DNA from: Octopus sinensis
Lineage: Eukaryota
Length of the DNA stretch: 38,354 bases
NCBI RefSeq assembly: GCF_006345805.1
Contig: NW_021835782.1
Location: 1 to 38,354, forward strand
Direction of reading: 5' to 3'
The notes beneath the pieces are model-generated. The model was not told the origin of the DNA and made no database searches. It saw only the letters and a list, made by a program, of their open reading frames with translations. A program made the position numbers and the translations under genes. Below, one piece after another: positions 4,657-37,326 of this stretch. Position 1 is the stretch's first letter; each line of letters begins with the position of its first letter.

Positions 4657-4805
4657 ACAGCTGGAAGCATACATCTGTAGTATATATAAATATCTATTTA
4701 TCACGATTTCGCTTCTTAGATATTCCACCTAGAAATTGCGGCCGTACAACAGCTATATATATATATATAACAAAGTGTAGTTGTAAGGTACCGCAAGAGT
4801 AGAAT

Positions 4806-5599
4806 TATATATGAAAGAAGGTTTGAAAATGCAATTTTAAAAGATGTTTATTTACTTGACCGGTTTCACTTTTCAGAAAAATATTGTCAAAAGTAACATG
4901 TAAAAGCATTGTTGTGTTAGGTACTGGTTGTCACAAAATATTACAATACATATATACATTCTTTGATAATAATAAGAACATGTTAAAAACTGTTTACAAG
5001 GAAAAATCTTGGGAAAATACAAAAAATTCATTAAAATATTGGGCACAAAAGTTGCAATACTTATATACAGTCTTTGATAATAATAAGATGTTAAAAACAG
5101 TTTACAGAAAATTTTTTTTTGAGAAATTATTAACAAGTTCATAAAACCTATTAGAATTTCATTAAAAATCATGTTTGCTTGGAAATATATATATATATAT
5201 ACACAGAAAGTTATAAGTTCAAAAAAGGTCATATTTTAGTCGTATATATATACACAGAAAGAGATATATTTAGTTTCCAAAGAATTTTAGATCAACTGAC
5301 CTGTTTCACAATTTTACAGTAAAATCGTGAAACAGGTCAGTTGATCTAAAATTCTTTGGAAACTAAATATATCTCTTTCTGTGTATATATATAGGACTAA
5401 AATATGACCTTTTTGAACATAGAATTTTCTGTGTATATATATAGATATTTCCAAACAAACATGATTTTTAATGAAAATCCTAATAGGTTTTATGAACTTG
5501 TTAATAATTTCTCAAAAAAAGTTTTTTCTGTAAACTGTTTTTAACATCATATTATTATCAAAAACTGTATATAAGTATTGCATTTTCAAACCTTCTTTC

Positions 5600-5606
<7 letters not shown>
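4806..5606. mobile_element. Fold-back (palindromic) PLE/HHR-derived element
   Basis: Arms 5053-5316 and 5320-5582 are near-perfect inverted repeats around a 3-nt loop; 4806-4835 and 5577-5606 form a 30-bp inverted repeat; a ~110-bp unit is tandemly duplicated at ~4943-5110; two HHR-related motifs. Confidence 0.8.
4852..4896 (-). ncRNA. Degenerate minimal type I hammerhead ribozyme
   Basis: Minus strand TTACTT-TTGACAA-T-ATTTTT CTG AAAAGT-GAAA-CCGG-TC-AAGTAA: 6-bp stem I, core two transitions from CTGACGA, palindromic ACCGGT stem III, GUC triplet. Confidence 0.7.
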
Positions 5607-5634
<28 letters not shown>

Positions 5635-5651
5635 TGTATGTATGCATGCAT

Positions 5652-8044: not shown

Positions 8045-8900
8045 GCAAGGGTTGTGATGAAAGTAATGAAAAACCCGGGCTTAACTTCTTATTAACTGAC
8101 AAACGTCGTTCAGAGTGAACAGGTCGGCGGAGTAACTTTTCCTCCAACACTAACCCCTCTTTCTGTTCTTGATTACAGGCAAATAACGGATGTGAAGCAG
8201 AATGTCACGTTCCTTATTAAGTTCTTGATAACGGAGGGAGCCTCGACGGTCCAGTATCCACCGAATGGCACAGGTTGTTTTCGGAAATGACGCCAATGAC
8301 AAAACAATAGTTGCGGATGGATGAAATTTTAAAGGAGAAACTAGCATTGAAGAAAAACCACACTGTAGGCGGCCATCAACTGGGACTTCTGAGAGAACCG
8401 CCAGCGATAGGAGGAATTGTTTCGCACAGGCAAAAGAATGACGATCAGTCATTTCACTGGACATATGGACTGTGGTTACACTGCATTACCAAAGATGATG
8501 AAAGCCTTTTGGTCTCACAAAGTATGTGCAAAATGGCTGCCTCAGCTGTTGACATCTGATTTGTAAGGAAAAAGCGTAAATGCCTGTTCTGACACGAAGC
8601 GTTTGCAGTCAATGAAGGCACGATTTTGCTGATCTGATTACAGGGGATGAAACGTGCGTTTATCTTTATGATCCGGAAATGAGGGCTTAGACTATGCAAT
8701 TGAGTTACATCTGTTCTCCAAGACTACAGAAACCCAAGGTTCAGCGATTTTAAAGAAGGTCATAGAGACTATTTTGGGGATTGACTTTGATTTTCTGAAA
8801 CGTGGCTGTACCGTGAACAACGTGTGTGACACTGAGGCATTCAAAAAGCTTAGAGAAGCAAGTAATAGGAAGTGACTATCCACCATTATTGTTCATGACG
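8045..8900 (+). mobile_element. Highly decayed mariner-like transposon
   Basis: Fragments translate to FKGETSIEEKPHCRRPST and ITGDETCVYLYDPE...SPRLQKPKVQR..KKVIETI, matching the mariner RSGRP and ITGDETWVYxYDPE motifs; ends approximate. Confidence 0.75.
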
Positions 8901-13256: not shown

Positions 13257-13907
13257 ATGCGTTCAGAGCGACGAAACCGTTCTGCACACACTCGTGCAGT
13301 GTCCAACCATTTCCGACCTGTGGGCTTATGTCGTACGACTGCTGTCACGTGTGGGACGAGTCGGTTTATCAGCCGAGTCTATCGTCAATATCGTCACGCC
13401 TCCTTCCTTCAAACGAGAAGGAAGAGCTATTTTCATCATCCTTGTGGCTGTGGCGAAAGAATGTATCTGGTGGACGCGCCTGAAAGGATTAGAGACAAAC
13501 ACTTTCCTCACTGGTCGATCTCTTATCAACTTCTTTAAGTATCACTTGAAAAGGGTGAAAAAAAAGATGGGTGAATGTAGCAAGGATGGCATGTATGAAT
13601 GACGAAGCCACCTATGAACCCGGAAAAATTTAAAACAGAGAGTTACTTATTTGCAAATAAATGTGTTAACATGACATTATTGACCGAGGTTACCGTGGTC
13701 TTTTCTTTCCATGGATAAATCTTATCTGTTTCCCTCTTTACACTTTACACCATGACATTTCTGTGATACACGATTCCTATTGATCGCTTTTTTTTAACGA
13801 TCCCTTTTGTTCGAAAACCTACCCTCCTTTTTTATCTCCCCAAAAAGAAAAGCTCTATTTTGTAATTTGTCCCCTCTGTATTCAGCCCTGTGTGGCTAAT
13901 AAAGAAA
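13257..13907 (+). mobile_element. Tx1/L1-type LINE, short 5'-truncated copy 1, within (TATC)n
   Basis: [22 protein letters not shown]...[18 protein letters not shown] is homologous to 27727-28140; same 3' end GCCCTGTGTGGCTAATAAAGAAA; internal deletion near 13555. Confidence 0.92.
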
Positions 13908-16413: not shown

Positions 16414-17658
16414 TCGATATTTGGTGTGACCGCCCTTGCTTTCAATGACTGCATGACTTTTGGGCATAGAGTCGACTAAATTTCCGCACATAACCGATGA
16501 AATAGACTAGCATTCATCCTGAATGATGTCGTTCAACTGTTACATTTCAGGGTTTTTTCTCCTCAAACCTTCCTTTTCAAAAAACCCCACAGATGTTCTA
16601 TTGGGTTTAAATCAGGAGACATGGTAGGCCTAAGCATTACCTTTACCTTTTTATCTGATAAAAACAGAGTCGTCATCTTTGCAGTGTGTTTAGAGTCATT
16701 ATCATGTTGGAATATGGAATGTCTTCCTAGTTCCTCGATGCTTTTCAACATTGTTTTCTGCAATATGTCCCAATAAAGCCTTAAATCCATTGTTCTCTCA
16801 ATAACTGTAAGTCCTCTCAAACAAGCCACACTCATGCATCCCCAAAGGTAGGAGAGTCCAGTTTGCTGGACATTGTTGTAGAGCTGAAAAAGAAGTAATT
16901 TCTACTCTTCTCCTCTGGAAGCCATCTACTCGCAATACCAGAGGGCGCACACTCTCCTACCCTGATGTAATCTCCAGGGATACAGGCATCCAGCAACAGG
17001 ACCTCCGTAATGCTATGATGGACCGTGAAGTATGGCGTAACACAGTAAATTCCATTGTCTCGACCACGGTCGAACAATGATGATGATGATCCCCAAAGCA
17101 TAACCCTTCCCCCCGGCTTTCATGGTAGGCATGGTACATTTGTCACTATTTTCTTCACCTGGTCGTCGCCATATTCGTTTAATACAATCTGACCCAAACA
17201 AGCTGATTTTAGTCTCATCAGAAAAAGGAATTAAAACTCCTTCCTCTTATTCACATAGGTTTCGGCAAAAGAAAGATGACTTGATTTATGCCCGGTAGTG
17301 AGGAGAGGCTTCATACGAGGAAATGTATCCATGAAGACCACACTGGGTCAAACTTCGACGAACTGTTTCCACTAACAGAAGGCACTTCTTGAGTCAAAAA
17401 TGAAGCAGCGCGACGCCTGTCGTCCATCACGCAACGTTGGATGTGGCGAATATCACGCGCAGTTAAAACAGAAGGATGACTTGGACGATGTTTATTGCTC
17501 AGCCATCCAGTAGCTTTGTACTTCTGAATCACTTTGGCAACTGTGTTTACACCAAATTGTGTTCTTTTGCTAATTAACTTGTATCCGAAACCATTCTTGT
17601 GCAAATTGAAAATAATTTTCTTCAAATCTTCAGACAGTTCTTTGCCTTTTGGTGCCAT
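16414..17658 (-). pseudogene. Tc1 DD34E transposase, frameshifted and interrupted by an RTE insertion
   Basis: MAPKGKELSEDLKK..; FSDETKISLFGSD; FQHDNDSKH..SPDLNPIEHLW with 34 residues between D and E; C-terminal KGGHTKY. Confidence 0.92.
16848..17088 (+). mobile_element. RTE-clade LINE 3' end with (TGA)n tail and 10-bp TSD
   Basis: Stop-free frame RRVQFAGHCCRAEKEVISTLLLWKP...RDTG..DLRNAMMDREVWR..*; TSD ATCCCCAAAG at 16838-16847 and 17089-17098. Confidence 0.9.
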
Positions 17659-18632
17659 TTTGATAACAATGAAGATTTTCACCACGGCACACAAATCAGA
17701 ATTCTTGCAGCTGCAATAACAATGACCGGTGCAAAAATGCCAGGAGAAATAATTTATTAGAATTGAAATTATCAGAAATATCTAAATTTAGTAAGAAAAA
17801 AAGTGGATAAAATATTGAATATAGCAAATTTTCTTGAGGGCGTACATATTTTTGTAACGCTTGAAAATTAATATTTCATTCATATCTTTGAAAATGTTTA
17901 TTGTTTTGTGTTCCAAATTTGTATAACGTTTGTATGTATAGTATATTTTATTCAGTATAAATTTCATTTGATTTCTTTCGATATTATCAGAGTAATAGAA
18001 ATTTTACTGAAATTTTTAGAGGTGTACATACTTCTGTGAGATGAAAAAATAAGTTTCGAAAACGATTAAGGTCGTTCATCATTTTTCCAGTATTTTTTCA
18101 TCTACGGATGATGTTACCCAGGCAGCTGTCTAAAAGGTCATTACTCATTCACGCGAATCCGCTCCTCCCGGCAAAGAAGGCATTTCAAAGAGGAGGAGAG
18201 AAGAACGATCTAACAACATTCACGGAGAGACGACTTAAAGAAGTTAAGGGGTGATGGCCTGAAAGACCGGTACAAAAACTGCATTATGAACTGAATTCTA
18301 TTTGTTGTAAAAATAATTTAAAATAAGATGAAACCCTAGCTTCAGTTCTTGATAAATCTCAAAGAAAGGAGAGATAATTTCGAGAAATCTATATTAATAC
18401 AATAGTACGTTCCTACCTACCAGCATTTGATGTCGTACCCCAGACATTTTATTGAAACAAAGAAACATTTTACAGGCAAAAAATCATTCATATGAAACAG
18501 TATTAATTCATTTAAATGAGATGCTTAGGTCAGAAAATAAAACTTGCTTACAAACGAGTATAAGTTATCATAGATACTGATATCATATAACGAAAATATA
18601 TACATATATATATACACACACATATATATATA

Positions 18633-22839: not shown

Positions 22840-23577
22840 GCATCTATCGGTCTTCGAGAGGCCCTGAATCTGCGCCCAGAGAAATCGTATCAGCTTTTGA
22901 TGGTGCAGCAGCGTCTTCTGTGGCTGAAGTTGTCCACACGGGAGCGGCAGTCACGCACACGGCGACTGCGTTCGAAAGAGCTCTCTACCGGCGCTACTAG
23001 TTTTTCCTTCCGTCGAGTGCGCTTTTCTTTGGTGGCGAGTTCCTGTTTTCCTTCCGCTTTCTTCATCCCCTTTCGCAGTATTTGTCTGCAGCACGGGCGA
23101 TCATTTGCGACCTCCTCTCAGGACGTCCAGATCAAGCGACTTCATATCTATCTTGCAAACGTCCTTGAAACGAAGATGAGGTCGTCCTCGTGTTCTTATG
23201 CTTGTGGCCAATTTCCCATACAAGAGTCCTTTTGGGATCCTCCCGTCCGGCATGCGATGTACATGACCGAGCCAGCACAGACGACGCTGCTGGAGCAGGG
23301 TGATTATACGGGGTACCTTGACGCAGTTGAGGACTTCGGTGGTGGTGATGCGTTTGGTCCACTTGACAGCCAAGATGCATCCCAAATTACGAAGGTGGAT
23401 GACGTTGAGACGCCGCTCCTGTCTAGAGCAGAGGCTCCACGTCTCACAGCCGTAAAGTGGCGCACTAAGGACGCACGCCTTATAGACAGCAATCATGGTA
23501 TCTGCAACCAGTTTTCTGTTTTCCCAGACTCTCTTTGTGAGCCTGGCAAATGTGGAGGCTGCTTGTCCAATATACAT
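22696..23577 (-). mobile_element. RTE (BovB-like) LINE 3' portion with (TAC)n tail
   Basis: IGQAASTFARLTKRVW..VYKACVLS..LYGCETW..RRLCWLGHVHRMPDGRIPK.LLYG.L..GRPHLRFKD; the 3' UTR ends ..CGAAGACCGATAGATGCC(TAC)n. Confidence 0.92.
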
Positions 23578-23736
23578 ACGACGGGCTTGTTTCGGTTTCC
23601 GTCTACCATATCCCCTCGCAAGGCTTTGGTCGGCCTGAAGCTGTAGTAGAAGACAACTGCCCTACATGTCACACAGTGGAACCGAACCCAGGACCATGTG
23701 GTTGCGAAGCAAATTTCTTACCACGCAGTCACTCCT
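23578..23736 (-). mobile_element. SINE family A, 5' half
   Basis: ACGACGGGCTT..TTTCCGTCTACC..AAGGCTTTGGTCGGCC..GTAGAAGACA..CAGTGGAACCGAACCC. Confidence 0.75.
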
Positions 23737-27726: not shown

Positions 27727-30700
27727 CTACAGGATCATGCTCAAAATGGTTTCGTTACTAGCACGCACCATCTTTGCAACATTCACCCATCTTTTTTTGA
27801 ATCTTTCGCGAGACAAAACTTCCCTCTCCATTCTCACCTTCCTTTTCAAGTGGTACTTGAAAAAGTTGATGAGCGATTGGCCAGAGAGGTAAGTGTTTGT
27901 CTCTAATCCTTTCGCTCGAGTCCACCACACACATTCTTTCACCATGGCCACCAGTACGATGAAAACTGCCTTGCCTTCCCGGTTGAGGGAAGGGGGCGGA
28001 GCAATTCTCACGATAGACTCGGCCGATAGGCGGATTCGTCCCACACGTGACAGCAGCCGTTCGGCATAAGCCCACAGGTCGGAAATGGTTGGACATTGCA
28101 CGAGTGCGTGCAGAACGGTTTCGTCGCTCTGACCGCATCTCGGGCAAGTCGGTCCAGTGTGTCTGGAACCGTGTCTGTAGAGCTTATCCCGAACAGGTAA
28201 TGCTTCTCGATAGCACTGCCAGGCCAGGGATCTTTGGTGATTGTTCATAGGTCCCGGCCCGAAAGTTGTCCTGAACAGGCGGGTCAGGTGTTCCTCGTCG
28301 ACGCCCAGACTCTGCCCGAGTTCGTCGTCGCACCTCCCCTCCACTAATCCTCTATAGAATGCCTTTGTTGTGATGGAGTCGCACAAGTTCGATCCCGGAC
28401 GGCAGAGTTGCTTGAGAGCAACGCGACACTCGCGTGGTGCCATTCGCCTAGCCTCGGTCTCTGCTTGATCCATGACTGTAGTTCGTCCAAGGAGACGAGC
28501 TGCGGGAAAGCGCGCCGCACAAAAGGCGACCACCCCTGTTCACCGTTGTCTATGAAGCGCCGGAGATGTCGCAGTCTCAGCGCATGTCTGCGCATCATCA
28601 ACCACGGCATGCCCAGCCCTCCATTTAGCGGGTGTTGGCAGCAAATGGATCGCCTAACCATCGGAACGTTTCCCTTCAACAAGAAAGAGTATGCGTTCCA
28701 GTTTGGTGATGGTAGGGTCGGGACAAGGCACGACGGTCAGACGATACTCGATGACGGATGCGATGTACGCGTTCGCCACCTCCGCCCGACCTTTTAGGGA
28801 TAGCTTTCTCTCAGTCCATTTCTGGGTGAGAGTAGCCACCCTAGTCGTTATCTCGCCCCAGTTCTTCTCCATTTGGAGGTCCGGACCGAACCAGACCCCG
28901 AGCAATTTAACCGGTCCGTCCGTCCAGCGTCCCACGATGGAGACGCTGTTGGACGGCATGGGCTTGCTTCTCCAGGTGCCGAGCCGCAAGCCCACTGACT
29001 TCCCGGTTAATTTTTGCTCCCGTTACCGCTTCGTATTCTTTCAGTGTCTCGCCGACCAGCTCGATGTGCTCGTAGCTCGACACTATGACGGTGACGTCAT
29101 CCGCGTATGCAGACACGCTCCTCCCGCATCCCAGCTCTCGTGGGATGCCCCTCAGCGTCGCCAGTTTCCGCAGTAGTGGCTCAAGAGTCAGTACATACAG
29201 CAGCGATGAGAGGGGGCATCCCTGACGAACCGAACGCATGATGTTAAAAGGTCTGGATAGATGACCATTTACGCGAACTACTGAGCGGATGCCGCTGTAT
29301 AAGGCAGCGATCCAACCGCGGAAAACTGGACCGAAACCAGCCGCTTTGAGGACAGCCTCCAAGTAGTGATGGTCTACCCTATCGAAGGCTTTTGATTGAT
29401 CCAAATTGATCAGCGCCCCACCCATGCCAGGATTTTTAACTACCCTGTCTATGATGTAGCGCATCAGATGGAGGTTGTCATGAATACTTCTACCCGGCAC
29501 GGCGCATGTTTGCGCCTTGTCGATTAGTTTCTTGATGACAAGCGCCAACCTCTCGGCTAACACCTTGGCCAAAATTTTCAAATCTGCGTTGAGCAGAGTG
29601 ATGGGCCTGAAATTATCTATGACGTCCCCCTTGTTTGGGTCTTTCTTGATCAGTGCCACTGCTCCTCGCTTTACAAAAGCAGGAATACTCCCGTTCTGCT
29701 GCCAGTTGCAGTAGACAGCTGCCAAGACGCCTCCAAACAAGTCTGGCATATGAAAATAAAATTCGTAGGGCAGACCATCCAAGCCTGGTGACTTGTCTCT
29801 CGCGCAGCCTACCATCGCATCCTGTACGTCCGCAGCTGTGATAGGCTTTTCACAAGACTCCACCTCCCTTGCTGAGAGTCGTGGCAAGGCATGCAGGTAG
29901 GCACTAAAGTCCACTCTGCTTTCTGACTCACCACTTGTCCCAAACAGTTGGGTGAAGTGTTGTTGAAAAACCCACACATCCTTTTAGGCTCGAGCAATTC
30001 GCGCCCCTGTTCATCTATAAGAGACTTGATGGTGGCTCTGTTGCCTCGTTGCGTCTCCACCACTCGGGCCTCTTGGGCGGCTCCAACTCCTTCGTTCCTC
30101 AGAGCACGCATCCTAGCTCTGACAACGCATCCCTCGTGTTTGGCGTTGAGGTGTTGGTCGAGGGCCAATCTCGCCGCCAGTACGTTGGACGCGATGCCAG
30201 TTCTAAGTGCCTCTTCTAAAACCTTAACTAATTCTCCCTCTATTCTATTTCGGTCTAATGCTAGGCTCTACTGTATCTGACTGATTCTGCTTTAATCGCT
30301 TTTTTAGGGCATACCACCATCTGTTGTTGATGATGGTACCCGTCAAAGCTCTCTTAACTAATGTGCTGATCCGGTCCCTGTAAACCTGTCGTGCTGTAAA
30401 AGACGCGTTCAGTTTCCAGTAACCAGGACCCTGCCTATGTGTCTTATCTAAGTCAAGTGTACAAGTCACAAACTTGTGATCTGTGTAACTGACTATATGA
30501 AATTGTGGACAACCTACACTATTTTTATCTATTGTCCTACAGAATACTCTATCTAAGTATGATCTGGACGACCCGATGCGGTTACTCCATGTCCACATTG
30601 GCACATTCGGGTGGTCCAGTCGGTACCTGTCAGACAGTTGGAAACGTCTGAGCAGGTCTTTGAGGCATTTGCATCCCCTTCTATTGCTATCTCTGCCCAC

Positions 30701-31157
30701 GTAGTCTAGATGCGTGTCCAGGGTGGCATTCCAATCCCCCACTAAAAGTAAAGGACGAGACGTTCCCATGAAAGACTCTAGACGTCGAAAGAAATCTGGT
30801 CGGCCTGTTAAGGACGGAGCATAAACTGCTATCAGTCGAAAAGCACACTCATTGCTGCCATCGACATCCAAAACGACCAGCCTACCCTCCGGGTCTAGGA
30901 AATTTGCTCTTACTTTGAGATCCAGACTCTTCCGGATAAGCACCGCGGTGCCACCTCCGCCCATTCTCGGTAGACACGAGAGAAAAATAAATGTTGAAAT
31001 GTGTACCGAAAATGTGCTGGAGTGCCCGCAAGCTGTGGAGTCTGGTCTCACTGATGGCTATGATATTCAGATTTAGTGACTTGATGTCATTTAACAGGTA
31101 GCCTTGTTTCCAAGGCGACCCCAAGCCACGTACATTTATACTACCTATTCTGAGCAT
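27727..31157 (-). pseudogene. LINE ORF2: AP endonuclease + reverse transcriptase + zf-RVT, broken by about six small indels
   Basis: SINVRGL, ISET, VYAP, LVGDWNA, SYLDR, YTDHK, GPGYWKLN; KSPGLDGLPYEFY, FRPITLLNAD, LDQSKAFDRVDH, VRQGCPLS, AYADD; [19 protein letters not shown]. Confidence 0.95.
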
Positions 31158-31198
31158 GTTCCGATAAAAGTGCAAAAAAGGAAAGGAGAGAGAAAAGG

Positions 31199-33350
31199 TT
31201 ACTTGTTTTTCGAAAGTTCTTTGTCTTTCACCTCACGGTCTTCTTCTATGAGGCTTTTATACAGTTTTTTCGATGAGTACTTTTGAAATCTCCCTACTGC
31301 ATCAGGGTAAAGAGATTTCAGGGGCTGTATGTGTTCTGTGTCCACGTGTATTATTTTAATGTGTTGTGGTGTGTTGTGTGTGGGTGGTTACTTGTTTTAT
31401 GTCGTTTTCAGTAATGTTAGTGTTTGACCTAATGTGTTCCATTAGGTCGTGGTTGTTTGTGTTTATGGCTGTCAACATTTTTGGGGGGGTTTGATGATGG
31501 TGTGTTTGTGTTGATGTGTGTGTTTTCTGTGGATGTTTTGTTTCGGGAGTGGTGTATCTTCCCGCTTTGTTTGTTATTTTTTCTTTTCTTTTTTTTCCCC
31601 TTTTTCTTCTCCCCCCTGTGGCTATTTGCCAATCTTCCGTGTCTTCTTCGTCTAATGACAGATCAGACGAATCGGAGTCTGGAAGAGGGAAAGTATTGGG
31701 GTCTATTGTCGACTGTGTTGGTTTTGTTGTTGGTGTTGGTTGGTGAGCGTTGGTTGTGGTGTATGCGGTTTTGGATGTGGGGTTTGGGTATTTTGTGTTT
31801 GAGTGATTGTGGGTATTGTTGTGTTGTTTAGGGTCTCAATTTTGTGGGGATTTGGAGTTGTAATTGTTTCTTCATTTTTGCTGGGTGTCTTTTTGGCAGA
31901 TGTCCTTGGTTTGGGAGTTGGTATATTCTTGGTTGTTGTTGTTGGTGATGCTGTGCTTCTGTTCTTGGTGCTGCAGTTGGTGTGGTTGTTTGTTTGGTGA
32001 GGTTTGTTCCTGCAAAAAGTGGTGTGGTAGTAAACCTTGTTTATTTGTTTTTGTTTCCGGCTGCTGTTGTTGTTGCTGTTGTTTTCTTGCGGTAGATTTG
32101 CAGTCTTTTTTGAGGTGTTGCTCACTGCCGCATATGTAGCAACGTGGTCTTCTGCCATCGACGACCACATATAACTTGTGGTCGTCTGATACACATATCT
32201 GGGTGGGTATTTTTTTTTATATCTTCATGATGTATATGTAGAAGAAATTCTATTTTTTTTCCCACCCAGTTTTTATGCTCTGTGACTGGTTTCCAAAATA
32301 GTATAATTCGCCATTTTTACGCATAAGGCCTTTACAAGCCATAGACTATTGGCTATTTTGGGGACATTGTTTAGAGTGATCTTAGTCACTTTCTGTCCCC
32401 GATAGCTTGGTGTAAGTTGGAGTTCATCTGAGTGAAGAGTTAGCGTTGAGAAATGTCTAGCTAACTCTTCGGTGTAGAAAACAACTTGTATGTGGGCAAA
32501 TTTGTTCCACCAGGTTACATATTCTTTGTGATCCCAGATGGGTTTCAAGCACTTCTCTATTTTGCTTGTGTTGGCCTTCTCTGGGATTTTTGTTTTTTTT
32601 GTTAACTATTTTATAAATGATTGTTCGTCTTTTTTCATTTTCCAAAAATGTCTTCTGGTATGTTTTATTTTTACTATACCTTCTGATTCTGTTATTTTGA
32701 TGTTCGTGTCCTGTATTGTTGAGCCGTAAAGTATGTTGTTTTTTTTCTTTAATCGCCTCAGCGAAATTTGTTGTTGTTTTGTTATTGTTGTTGCTTGTGG
32801 TGATGTTGTTGTTGGCTGCAGTTTGTAAAATTGGTGTGTTTGGTTCGATCGTGCAAGTAGGAAGGGGTGGAAAATTGCCTGCGTACTTTAGTCCTGCACT
32901 AGGGCAAATTCGACATTTCGTTTGCTTGTCGTCGTTATTTTTTCACTTGTTGGTGATGGAGTGAGCAGTGGTTGAAGGGAATTGTGTTGTCGTCGTTGTT
33001 GTTGTTGTTGTTGTTATTGTCGTTCTTGGTGACGGCGGTGGTGTTGGTAGTATTAGTAGCATTGACGGCACGGTCTTTGGTGGCGGTGATGGTGATGTTG
33101 GTGTTGTTATTGGTGGCGATATCTTTAGTAGGGATAGCAGTTTTAGTAGCAGATTCTGCCATGGTGTGGTGGTGGTGGTGGACTCACTGATGGTGTTGAC
33201 GGTGCTTGGCCTTGCGACCTTTGTTTGTATTTGTTGCTGTTGATGGTGGTGGAGTTGTCAGGTTCGGCGTATGCTAACAGAGCATCCTGTTTTTCTGTTT
33301 CTGCGTCACGCTTGACTTGCAACTCAGCCTCGTGGTGGCCAAGTGGCCAT
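31199..33350 (-). pseudogene. LINE ORF1 (gag-like), low-complexity T/N/Q/K regions, single CX2CX4HX4C knuckle, frameshifted
   Basis: DGRRPRCYICGSEQHLKKDC at ~32100-32160; TAA at 31199-31201; start position approximate. Confidence 0.8.
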
Positions 33351-34994: not shown

Positions 34995-37326
34995 TTTCTT
35001 TATTAGCCACACAGGGCTGCACACAGATAGAACAAATTACAAGTAAGAGCTTTTCTTTTGAAGGTTTAAAAAAAAAAAAAAGGAAGGGGAGTTTCGATCA
35101 AAAGGGATCGTAAAAGAGAGAAAGAGGACAAAAAAAAGGGGGGGGGGTTAAAAAAAAAAAAAAAAAAAGGGGAGAGGAAAAAAAATTGATCAATAGGGAT
35201 CGTTATCACAGAAATGTCAATATGAAGTGTAAAGGGGAGGACAGGTGAGGTTTACCCGTGGAAAAAAAGCCTACGGAAAGACCACGGTAACCTCGGTCAA
35301 TGAAGTCACATTTATATTTCTTTTTTTTTTTTTTTTTTTTTTTTGCAAATAAGCAACTCTCTGTTTTCGATTTCTGGGTTTCATAGGACTATGCTCAAGG
35401 TGGCTTCGTCATTCATACGTGCCATTCTTGCTACATTCACCCATCTTTTTTAAAACATTCGCTAGACAAAACTTGCCTCTCTACTCTCACTTTCCTTTTC
35501 AAGTGGTACTTGAAGAAGTTGATGAGAGATTGACCAGAAGGAAAGTGTTTGTCTCCAATCCTTTCAGACGCGTCCACCAGATACATTCTTTCGCCATAGC
35601 CACAAGGATGATGAAAATAGCTCTTCCTTCCCGTTTGAAGGAGGAGGCGTGACAATATTGACGATAGACTCAGCTGATAAACCGACTCGTCCCACGTGAC
35701 AGCAGTTGTTCGACATAAGCCCCACAGGCGGAAATTGTTGGACACTGAACGAGTGCGTGCAGAACGGTTTCGTCGCTCTGACCGCATCTCGGGCAGGTCG
35801 GGCCCCGTGTTTCTCGAGCCGTGTCTGTAGAGCTTATCCCGAACGGTAGCGCTTCTCGGTAGCATTGCCAGGCCAGGATCTCTGGAAGTTGTCCATGGGC
35901 CCTGGCCCGAAAGTCGTCCCGAACAGGCGGGTCAGGTACTCCTCGTCGACGTCCAGGTTCGCCCCGAGCTCGTCGTCGTACCTCCCCTCCACTAAACCCC
36001 TATAGAATGCTTGGGTTGTGTTGAGTCACTTAAGGTCGACCCAGGACGGCAGAGTTGCTTGAGAGCAACGCGACACTCGCGGTGCCATTCGCCCTTCCTC
36101 GGCCTCTTTTTGATCCACGACTGCAGTTCGGTCATGGAGACGAGCTGCGGGAAAGCGTGCTCACAACGGCGACCACACCTGTTCACCGTCGTCTACATAG
36201 AGCCAGAGATGTCGCAGTCTCAGCGCGTGGTCTGCGCATCATCAACCACGGCATGCCCAGCCCTCCTTTTAACGGGTGTTGACAGCAAATGGATCGCCTG
36301 ACCATCGGGACGCATCCTTTCCACAAGAAGTGAAAGAGGATGCGTTGTAGTTTGGTGATGGTAGGGTCGGGACAAGTACGACGGTCAGGCGGTAGTAGAT
36401 GACGGACGCGATGTACGTGTTCTCCCCCTCCGCTCGACCTTTTGGGACAGTTTCCTCTCGGCCCATTGCCGGGCGAGAGTGACCACCCTACTCGTTATCT
36501 CGTTCCAGTTCTTCTCCCCTTGGAGGTCCGGACCAACCAGACCCCGAGCAACTCAACCGGGCCGTCGGTCCAGCGTCCCACTACGGAGTGGCGCTGGTGG
36601 ACGGCATGGGCTTGCTTCTCCAGGTGCCTAGTCGCAAGCCCACTGACTTTCCCCGGTTGATTTTCGCTCCTGTCACCGCTTCGTAGTTTTTCAGTGTCTC
36701 GCCGACCAGCTCGATGTGCTCGTGGCTAGACACTATGACGGTGATTCGTCCGCGTATGCAGACACGCTCGTCCCGCATCCCAATTCTCGCGGGATGCCCC
36801 TTAGAGTCGCCAGCTTCCGCAGTAGTGGCTCAAGAGTCAACGTATAGAAGCGCCGAGAGGGGATCCCGGACGGACCGAACGTGCAATTTCGAAAGGTCTC
36901 GATAGATGTCCATTTACGCGCGAATTACCGAACGGATGCCTCTGTACAAGGCAGCTATCCAGCCGCGGAAGAAGGGACCGAAACCAGCCGCTCTCAGGAC
37001 TGCCTCCAAGTATCGATGGTCTACCCTATCAAAGGCTTTCGATTGATCCAGTTGATCAGGGCCCACCCATGCCAGGTTCGTTAACTACCCTGTCTATGAT
37101 GTAGCGCATCAGATGGAGGTTGTCATGGATGGTCCGGCCTGGCACGGCGCATGTTTGCGCCTTGTCGACCAGTTTCTCGATGACAAGCGCCAACCTCTTG
37201 GCTAGCACCTTGGCCAAATTTTCAAGTCTGCATTAAGCAGAGTGATGGTCCTAAAGTTATCTATTACATTTCCCTTGTTAGATCTTCTTTCTTCAGCAGT
37301 GTTACGGCTCCTCGGCTCACAAAACC

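What the first reader, a model, noticed from the sequence alone, without database searches (positions are those of the whole stretch)
4806..5606. 530-bp DNA palindrome whose axis appears to be a hammerhead stem II hairpin
Seen: arms 5053-5316 and 5320-5582 pair around a 3-nt loop. Across the axis the minus strand reads ACGATTTTA CTG TAAAATTGT-GAAAC AG GTC, a stem-loop followed by the GAAAC..GUC half of an HHR. It has the same CTG loop and GTGAAAC..GGTCA context as the complete degenerate HHR at 4852-4896. The upstream CUGANGA half is replaced by the mirror image of the downstream sequence. The right arm also skips the 4836-5052 equivalent via a shared TGCAAT, producing 30-bp terminal inverted repeats in TA. 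Inference: cDNA snapped back on the ribozyme hairpin and self-primed second-strand synthesis, giving a MITE-looking element from an HHR retroelement. If transcribed, it would form long dsRNA (a potential ADAR or Dicer substrate).
Basis: partly seen in the sequence, partly recalled or inferred. Interest (0 to 1): 0.75.

Follow-up and report, generated by a model that had tools for sequence, protein, structure and literature searches.

The report
Head-to-head Penelope retrotransposon stub
This mirror-image DNA is two back-to-back end pieces of a common Penelope-type jumping gene, likely made as two separate DNA copies of one RNA and joined at a spot where such copies often stop; its centre is not the stem of an intact ribozyme, so it is an ordinary scar of a known kind.

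Summary
The palindrome is real: 249 of 266 columns match, and a separately assembled contig spans the axis. It is a head-to-head pair of truncated ends (pLTR) of a Neptune/Nematis-type Penelope-like retrotransposon. It is not a MITE: the left end runs 36 bp past the claimed terminal repeat (the PLE tail). The motif at 4852-4896 is a U3-A8 minimal hammerhead of the published PLE type. The axis is not stem II of an intact hammerhead: 0 of 48 untruncated copies have CTGANGA upstream. The real hammerhead is no breakpoint hotspot. The axis site is one: 43 of 92 copies end within 30 nt of it. Simple snap-back is disfavoured. In 40 of 44 head-to-head pairs exactly one arm has the tail, either arm can be the longer, and here the native loop lies on the arm lacking tail and ribozyme. 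Two cDNAs joined at a 5-nt overlap fit best. The anatomy is published, and this scan noted the same reading on other DNA, including other families in this genome.

The parts
4754..4769 (.). (TA)n target microsatellite at the tailed end
   Evidence: family copies end in TA repeats
4770..4805 (-).
   Evidence: 117 of 247 distinct family ends carry it
4770..5316 (-). Left arm: 5'-truncated pLTR copy with hammerhead and tail, element sense on the minus strand
4852..4896 (-). Minimal type I hammerhead motif: U3-A8 core, 6-bp stem I, palindromic stem III, predicted cut after 4858; this copy has a substitution at the base of stem II; activity untested
   Evidence: type described in PMC4209133
4932..5111 (-). 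Internal tandem duplication of the pLTR (4932-5005 about 85% like 5044-5111), shared by the family
5295..5303 (-).
5312..5324 (+). Junction: native 5-bp A-T hairpin with CAG loop in element sense on the plus strand; 5312-5316 is shared by both arms; lies in the family's 5'-end hotspot
5312..5606 (+). Right arm: inverted 5'-truncated pLTR copy without tail, with a 217-bp internal deletion that removes the hammerhead
5333..5341 (+). CAG|GTCAGT motif in the right arm
5577..5582 (+). 6-nt microhomology at the deletion joint
5600..5645 (.). TA / TATG microsatellite at the tail-less end

Best explanation
The 837-bp insertion at 4770-5606 is two truncated end copies of a Penelope-like retrotransposon joined head to head in a TA repeat, likely made as two separate cDNAs of one RNA, one primed from each cut DNA strand. 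[quoted passage not shown] Only the left arm has the 36-bp tail. Both arms come from one template lineage. 5' ends of this subfamily pile up 2-28 nt upstream of the GTGAAAC anchor. INFERRED: the endonuclease nicks both strands of (TA)n. One strand starts reverse transcription at the outer start site (tail included) and the other at the inner TATATA site (no tail). Both stop in the hotspot, and their 3' ends anneal through 5 nt (5312-5316). The 217-bp deletion arose by a jump at a 6-nt microhomology, during copying or later. Why copies stop there is unresolved: the RNA 5' end just upstream of a likely splice donor (about 0.4), a pause at the A/U tracts or hairpin (about 0.35), other (0.25). The copy has no ORF and is likely dead.
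For: PLE identity. An ORF fragment lies beside family copy L006/L031, with GIY-YIG E=2e-4. L069 holds a 776-aa frame with RVT_1 above cut-off. All 11 long ORF loci carry the window's 3' end downstream in ORF sense, and 6 of 11 also have an inverted copy of it upstream. Two cDNAs. 40 of 44 head-to-head pairs have exactly one tail, against 21.9 expected (p=8e-9). Of 25 cleanly mapped pairs the tailed arm is longer in 10, the tail-less arm in 11, about equal in 4, so in 11 neither arm can be a copy of the other. Here the native CAG loop is in sense on the tail-less arm. One template. The arms share letters found in 0 of the 25 closest relatives at three columns, and a 19-mer occurs only in these two arms genome-wide. 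Hotspot. 43 of 92 copies end in the first 30 nt against 10 of 176 at-risk bins further up (p=5e-15). With a downstream anchor the rate is 0.120 against 0.037 per 10 nt. In vitro a PLE protein cuts and extends both strands and starts at two sites bounding the tail (PMC11167929).
Against: Near-symmetric joints are common at this site: in 9 of 15 inverted copies broken in the hotspot both arms end there, which snap-back also predicts. One T-to-A change in the loop would rescue snap-back from the tailed arm for this one locus. Shared private letters could also come from gene conversion between arms. The GIY-YIG score (22.0) is just under the Pfam cut-off (22.6) and was not reported for the two full-length frames. 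The RNA-start idea did not replicate: in a sister ORF-bearing subfamily only 2 of 30 copies end within 39 nt of the same donor-like motif. A stricter tail test gave 33 of 44 one-tail pairs and 11 with none. No mechanism step was tested biochemically.
Confidence: 0.72

Rival explanations
1. Snap-back at a non-ribozyme hairpin. One cDNA, started at the tail, folded back on the 5-bp A-T hairpin, copied itself, skipped 217 nt at the microhomology and ended by pairing with the TA target at the inner TATATA.
For: The 3-nt loop coincides with a native hairpin. Both arms share one template. 9 of 15 hotspot inversions are near-symmetric. It also yields one tail per pair. Self-priming was proposed for PLE palindromes in PMC3846280 (Discussion), there on an antisense template.
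Against: The loop reads in native sense on the tail-less arm. The hairpin is marginal as DNA, -0.7 kcal/mol in a close relative. The hotspot is as strong in variants with AAAAC, most of which lack this hairpin (13 of 24 against 30 of 67). The tail-less arm is the longer in 11 of 25 pairs.
Confidence: 0.17
2. One reading: snap-back on stem II of a second, intact hammerhead, whose CUGANGA half was overwritten by the mirror image.
For: GTGAAAC..GGTCA resembles the 3' hammerhead. The regions align in register, with 14, 184 and 277 of 1000 shuffles scoring as well in three copies. By eye, a one-mismatch version of the U3-A8 half lies 21-27 nt upstream in the young subfamily (print), so a decayed duplicate is possible.
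Against: CTGANGA occurs in 0 of 48 and TTGANAA in 1 of 48 untruncated copies; GAAAC is kept in 31 of 48. There is no stem I partner next to the core. In divergent ORF-bearing subfamilies CAGGTCAGT is kept while GAAAC is not. The real hammerhead is no hotspot. Exact fold-backs across it number 7 (6 look like this family) against 2083 half-core matches. 5' ends do not cluster at the would-be cleavage site.
Confidence: 0.04
3. The palindrome formed after insertion (inverted duplication or repair at DNA level), or is a propagated MITE.
For: Palindromes and microhomology deletions are common in repeats, and the deletion itself may be post-insertional.
Against: The one-tail rule is a signature of PLE insertion. 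The private 19-mer occurs nowhere else, so there are no sister MITE copies. The ends are unequal.
Confidence: 0.05
4. Read or assembly artefact (fold-back chimera).
For: The window is an unplaced 38-kb contig; no contig spans the whole stretch.
Against: The arms differ at 17 of 266 columns and by a 217-bp deletion. A 77-nt contig bridges the axis with the arm-specific letters. The same structure recurs on large contigs.
Confidence: 0.02

Closest known systems
Endonuclease-bearing Penelope-like elements with an inverted 5'-truncated pLTR and a one-sided 30-40-bp tail (Adineta Pen2a/Pen3a, PMC3846280: passages and Discussion read; overview in PMC8557442: passages read)
   Same: Head-to-head pLTR copies with a palindromic junction, tail at one end, microhomology deletions, AT-rich target.
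   Different: Here no ORF lies between the arms. The published reading is self-priming on an antisense template; my counts favour two cDNAs. No TSD can be read in the TA repeat.
Neptune/Nematis clades of PLEs (features as summarised in PMC8557442, passages)
   Same: [quoted passage not shown]
   Different: Clade not fixed by a tree; no reference sequences were at hand.
Minimal type I hammerheads of metazoan PLEs, U3-A8 variant (PMC4209133, parts 1-2 of 4 read)
   Same: In the pLTR; U3-A8 core as in Schistosoma Cercyon elements; small palindromic helix III; long helix II.
   Different: Helix II opens with U-U rather than the usual G10.1-C11.1 pair; activity untested.
Anolis PAc in vitro system (PMC11167929, parts 1-2 of 4 read)
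   Same: Two reverse-transcription start sites bounding the tail; both target strands cut and extended; AT-rich target.
   Different: Poseidon clade; in the parts I read it did not explain inverted copies.
Drosophila virilis Penelope promoter and 5'-UTR intron (PMC2377424, passages read)
   Same: A conserved splice donor shortly after the RNA start inside the pLTR would match the donor-like motif 11-37 nt downstream of the hotspot ends.
   Different: There the intron starts 46 bp after a mapped start; here neither start nor intron is shown.

Membership tests
EN+ Penelope-like element (family level) | ORF with RT | tested here: met
   RVT_1 above cut-off in L069 and L073; DKG motif visible
EN+ Penelope-like element (family level) | C-terminal GIY-YIG endonuclease | tested here: met
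   E=2e-4, 22.0 bits against cut-off 22.6 on the L031 fragment; motif read at the C-terminus; not reported by Pfam for the full frames
EN+ Penelope-like element (family level) | pLTRs, direct or inverted, that include the window sequence | tested here: met
   11 of 11 ORF loci with the window's 3' end downstream, 6 of 11 with an inverted copy, one direct tandem; L067 links the axis context to an ORF
EN+ Penelope-like element (family level) | 30-40-bp tail, usually on one end | tested here: met
   36 bp; one tail in 40 of 44 pairs
Neptune/Nematis clade | CX2-5CxxC linker between RT and EN | tested here: met
   CxxxxCxxC in P0001 and P0002
Neptune/Nematis clade | Placement in an RT tree | not tested
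   no reference set fetched
PLE minimal hammerhead (4852-4896) | Core boxes with 3-8 pair, stem I, palindromic stem III | tested here: met
   U3-A8 as in PMC4209133. Rfam gave no hammerhead match and the monomer minimum-energy fold is another one
PLE minimal hammerhead (4852-4896) | G10.1-C11.1 pair | tested here: not met
   U-U at that place in the listed variants
PLE minimal hammerhead (4852-4896) | Self-cleavage | not testable with these tools
   needs an in vitro assay
Hammerhead at the palindrome axis | CUGANGA or U3-A8 half before stem II | tested here: not met
   0 of 48 and 1 of 48
Hammerhead at the palindrome axis | Conserved GAAA box | tested here: not met
   GAAAC in 31 of 48; G at that column in 44 of 70 copies picked by another anchor; absent in divergent subfamilies
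Hammerhead at the palindrome axis | Descent from a duplicated hammerhead region | tested here: inconclusive
   14, 184 and 277 of 1000 shuffles in 3 of 6 copies tried
MITE | True terminal inverted repeats and many like copies | tested here: not met
   left end extends 36 bp; private 19-mer only at this locus
Non-LTR retrozyme | Tandem head-to-tail units, each with a hammerhead | tested here: not met
   one hammerhead, inverted arrangement; definition from preprint 10.64898/2026.07.22.740005, part 1 of 5

The most novel reading that the evidence does not exclude
Inverted Penelope ends are built by two reverse transcriptases primed on the two cut strands at the two start sites that bound the tail, not by self-priming. 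In this lineage both cDNAs run to the RNA's 5' end, just upstream of a conserved splice donor, so the palindrome axes map the element's transcription start.
Probability: 0.35. Interest if true: 0.5.

Novelty: new member of a known kind. Interest (0 to 1): 0.27.

Why it matters
The locus itself is a dead repeat. The family counts bear on an open question: how Penelope-like elements make their inverted ends and one-sided tails. PMC8557442 (passages) calls this unresolved, and PMC3846280 (Discussion) proposes antisense self-priming. One tail per pair, with either arm longer, fits the two-strand cutting and two start sites seen in vitro, and is testable in that system. It also warns that such stubs get mis-filed as MITEs, and that a GAAAC..GTC look-alike is not enough to call a hammerhead.

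Tried and rejected
Rfam scan of the window: no hammerhead family matched; only microRNA-type hits on repeats and on the hairpin, all under gathering score. RNA evidence: three runs guessed to be RNA and one small DNA run gave short contigs on the arms and none across the axis. These are contigs of a repeat, so this says nothing for or against transcription, editing or siRNA. The only letter difference in the first laying was A>T at 4908, from other copies. Hammerhead cleavage as the cause of the hotspot: ends peak 12-17 nt upstream of the anchor, not at the would-be cut 12 nt downstream. Spliced copies joining the donor-like motif to a downstream acceptor: none seen in the loci held. RNA-start replication in a sister subfamily: not found. 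One search gave 12 loci, 5 of this family (two are duplicates of each other); the other 7 were not examined. Searches stopped on my script errors; 35 was rerun, and the unfinished part of 46 as 47. Literature. In one search no listed paper held both 'twin priming' and 'pLTR'; the library lacks most subscription journals and I read no supplements, so absence from print is not shown. A sequence look-up in the scan's notes was blank.

Full report
Observation. The arms 5053-5316 and 5320-5582 align with 249 matches, 12 substitutions and 5 gap columns in 266. 4806-4835 equals the reverse complement of 5577-5606, and the right arm lacks the 217-bp equivalent of 4836-5052 at a 6-nt shared word. A 77-nt contig of run X2 covers 5280-5356 without a differing letter. 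With the arm differences this argues against an artefact, though X2 may be the source sample. The window is a whole unplaced contig of a 2.72-Gb genome; an earlier scan note calls it an octopus genome (not checked).

Family. The left half is a dispersed repeat (2065 first-look candidates, 40 scored). An inverted ORF fragment beside one copy gave a GIY-YIG match just under cut-off. Searching with it gave 150 scored matches. I extended 11 of them: 4 chosen because one search showed family sequence downstream, and 7 for long open frames. All 11 carry the window's 3' end downstream in ORF sense, 6 have an inverted copy of it upstream, and one is a direct tandem. [quoted passage not shown] This is a Neptune/Nematis-type Penelope-like element by the features in PMC8557442 (passages); no tree was built. 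In the tandem L070 the ORF begins about 30 nt after the tail, so the window holds pLTR or leader sequence only.

The real hammerhead. 4852-4896 has a 6-bp stem I, a U3-A8 core, a long stem II and a palindromic stem III, conserved over subfamilies. This matches the PLE minimal hammerheads of PMC4209133 (parts 1-2 of 4), except that helix II opens with U-U. Rfam does not detect it, its monomer minimum-energy fold is another structure, and activity is untested.

The axis is not an intact hammerhead. An anchor next to the axis has 148 matches at up to 3 mismatches, 100 of them listed; I held 99 distinct anchors. Of the 48 that continue 40 nt or more upstream, 0 have CTGANGA (0 with one mismatch) and 1 has TTGANAA within 45 nt, and 31 keep GAAAC. 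The native loop is CGA in 16, CAG in 5, CTG in 0, and 19 have no such hairpin. In 4 of the 11 ORF loci the motif CAGGTCAGT lies 353-444 nt before the hammerhead in otherwise divergent sequence, without an adjacent GAAAC; it was not found in the other 7 at one mismatch. It fits the 5' splice-site consensus (recalled), and D. virilis Penelope has a conserved donor 46 bp after its RNA start (PMC2377424, passages). The donor reading is inference. A decayed hammerhead duplicate is not excluded: alignment to the 3' hammerhead region was matched by 14, 184 and 277 of 1000 shuffles in the 3 of 6 copies that could be tested.

The axis is a breakpoint hotspot. After dropping 7 second arms or duplicates, 43 of 92 copies lose homology within 30 nt upstream of the anchor, against 10 of 176 at-risk bins over the next 120 nt (p=5e-15), peaking at 12-17 nt. 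As a control I used 102 copies picked by an anchor about 126 nt downstream (180 matches, 100 listed). These lose 24 of 54 in the same interval, 0.120 per 10 nt against 0.037 in the other intervals (p=1e-6; the adjacent interval, 9 of 63, was left out of the background). A few of these 24 are internal deletions or TA expansions rather than true ends. The hotspot holds for GAAAC variants (30 of 67) and for AAAAC variants, most of which lack the hairpin (13 of 24). The true hammerhead is no hotspot: 7 of 67 lost across stem II, 0.035 per 10 nt, in 73 ends from the first rows of 369 matches. Exact fold-backs are about 6 in 2083 there against about 4 in 148 at the axis site; this comparison is rough, as the patterns differ. 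Against the RNA-start explanation, only 2 of 30 copies of a sister ORF-bearing subfamily end within 39 nt of the same donor-like motif.

How the palindrome formed. Of 44 head-to-head pairs in the loci held, 40 have exactly one tail, 3 none and 1 two, where independence predicts 21.9. A stricter tail pattern gave 33, 11 and 0. Of 37 pairs up to 1.6 kb, 12 were dropped as unclean or same-ended; in the other 25 the tailed arm is longer in 10, the tail-less arm in 11, and 4 are about equal. Where the tail-less arm is longer, neither arm can be a copy of the other. In the window the native CAG loop reads in sense on the right, tail-less arm, which reaches 8 nt further 5' and overlaps the left arm by 5 nt. 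A snap-back from that arm could not supply the tail and the ribozyme segment. Both arms share private letters, so they come from one template lineage. The hairpin is worth -0.7 kcal/mol as DNA in a close relative. I therefore infer two cDNAs primed on the two nicked strands, at the two start sites that bound the tail as shown in vitro for another PLE (PMC11167929, parts 1-2 of 4), annealed at their 3' ends. Snap-back from the tailed arm plus one later loop change remains possible for this locus, and 9 of 15 hotspot inversions are near-symmetric.

Relation to what is known. Head-to-head pLTRs with junction palindromes and a one-sided tail are described as the typical Penelope structure, with antisense self-priming proposed (PMC3846280, passages and Discussion). 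I found no listed paper joining 'twin priming' with 'pLTR', in a library that lacks most subscription journals; supplements were not read and could bear on this. Earlier notes of this scan reached the two-cDNA reading on other genomes and other families of this genome; they are unchecked and not counted as support. Verdict: a new family member of a known kind, the locus ordinary, the family statistics of modest mechanistic interest.

Noticed in passing
window 27727-32942, minus strand: Near-complete L1/Tx1-like LINE in broken frames (endonuclease, RVT_1, zf-RVT); 3' fragments also at about 13257-13600 (inverted) and 35437-35931.
   Followed up: partly
window 16563-17781, minus strand: Tc1/mariner-type transposase pieces (HTH_SB, DDE_3).
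   Followed up: partly
window 23101-23661, minus strand: Frame that looks like an RTE/CR1-type LINE C-terminus by recall; no Pfam hit.
   Followed up: no
L004 891-1319: 429-bp, 98.8% palindrome abutting the 5' end of a family copy; its arms carry a CTGATGAG box, likely a second, younger PLE family.
   Followed up: no
L072 about 1156 (also three counts): A canonical C3-G8 type I hammerhead motif of a different repeat.
   Followed up: no
L073 about 8095-8145, minus strand: A second PLE family (about 54% identical in the EN region) with a U3-A8 hammerhead, 7-bp stem I, G-C opening of stem II and the same palindromic stem III.
   Followed up: partly
L031-L033, L066-L076, between ORF end and pLTR: A CA-rich or TG-rich low-complexity spacer of 1-2 kb between ORF and pLTR, often internally duplicated.
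   Followed up: no
L243 1426-1543: Symmetric 117-bp mini-palindrome whose centre is 17 nt or more of self-complementary sequence not from the reference copy; one of the best snap-back-like cases.
   Followed up: no
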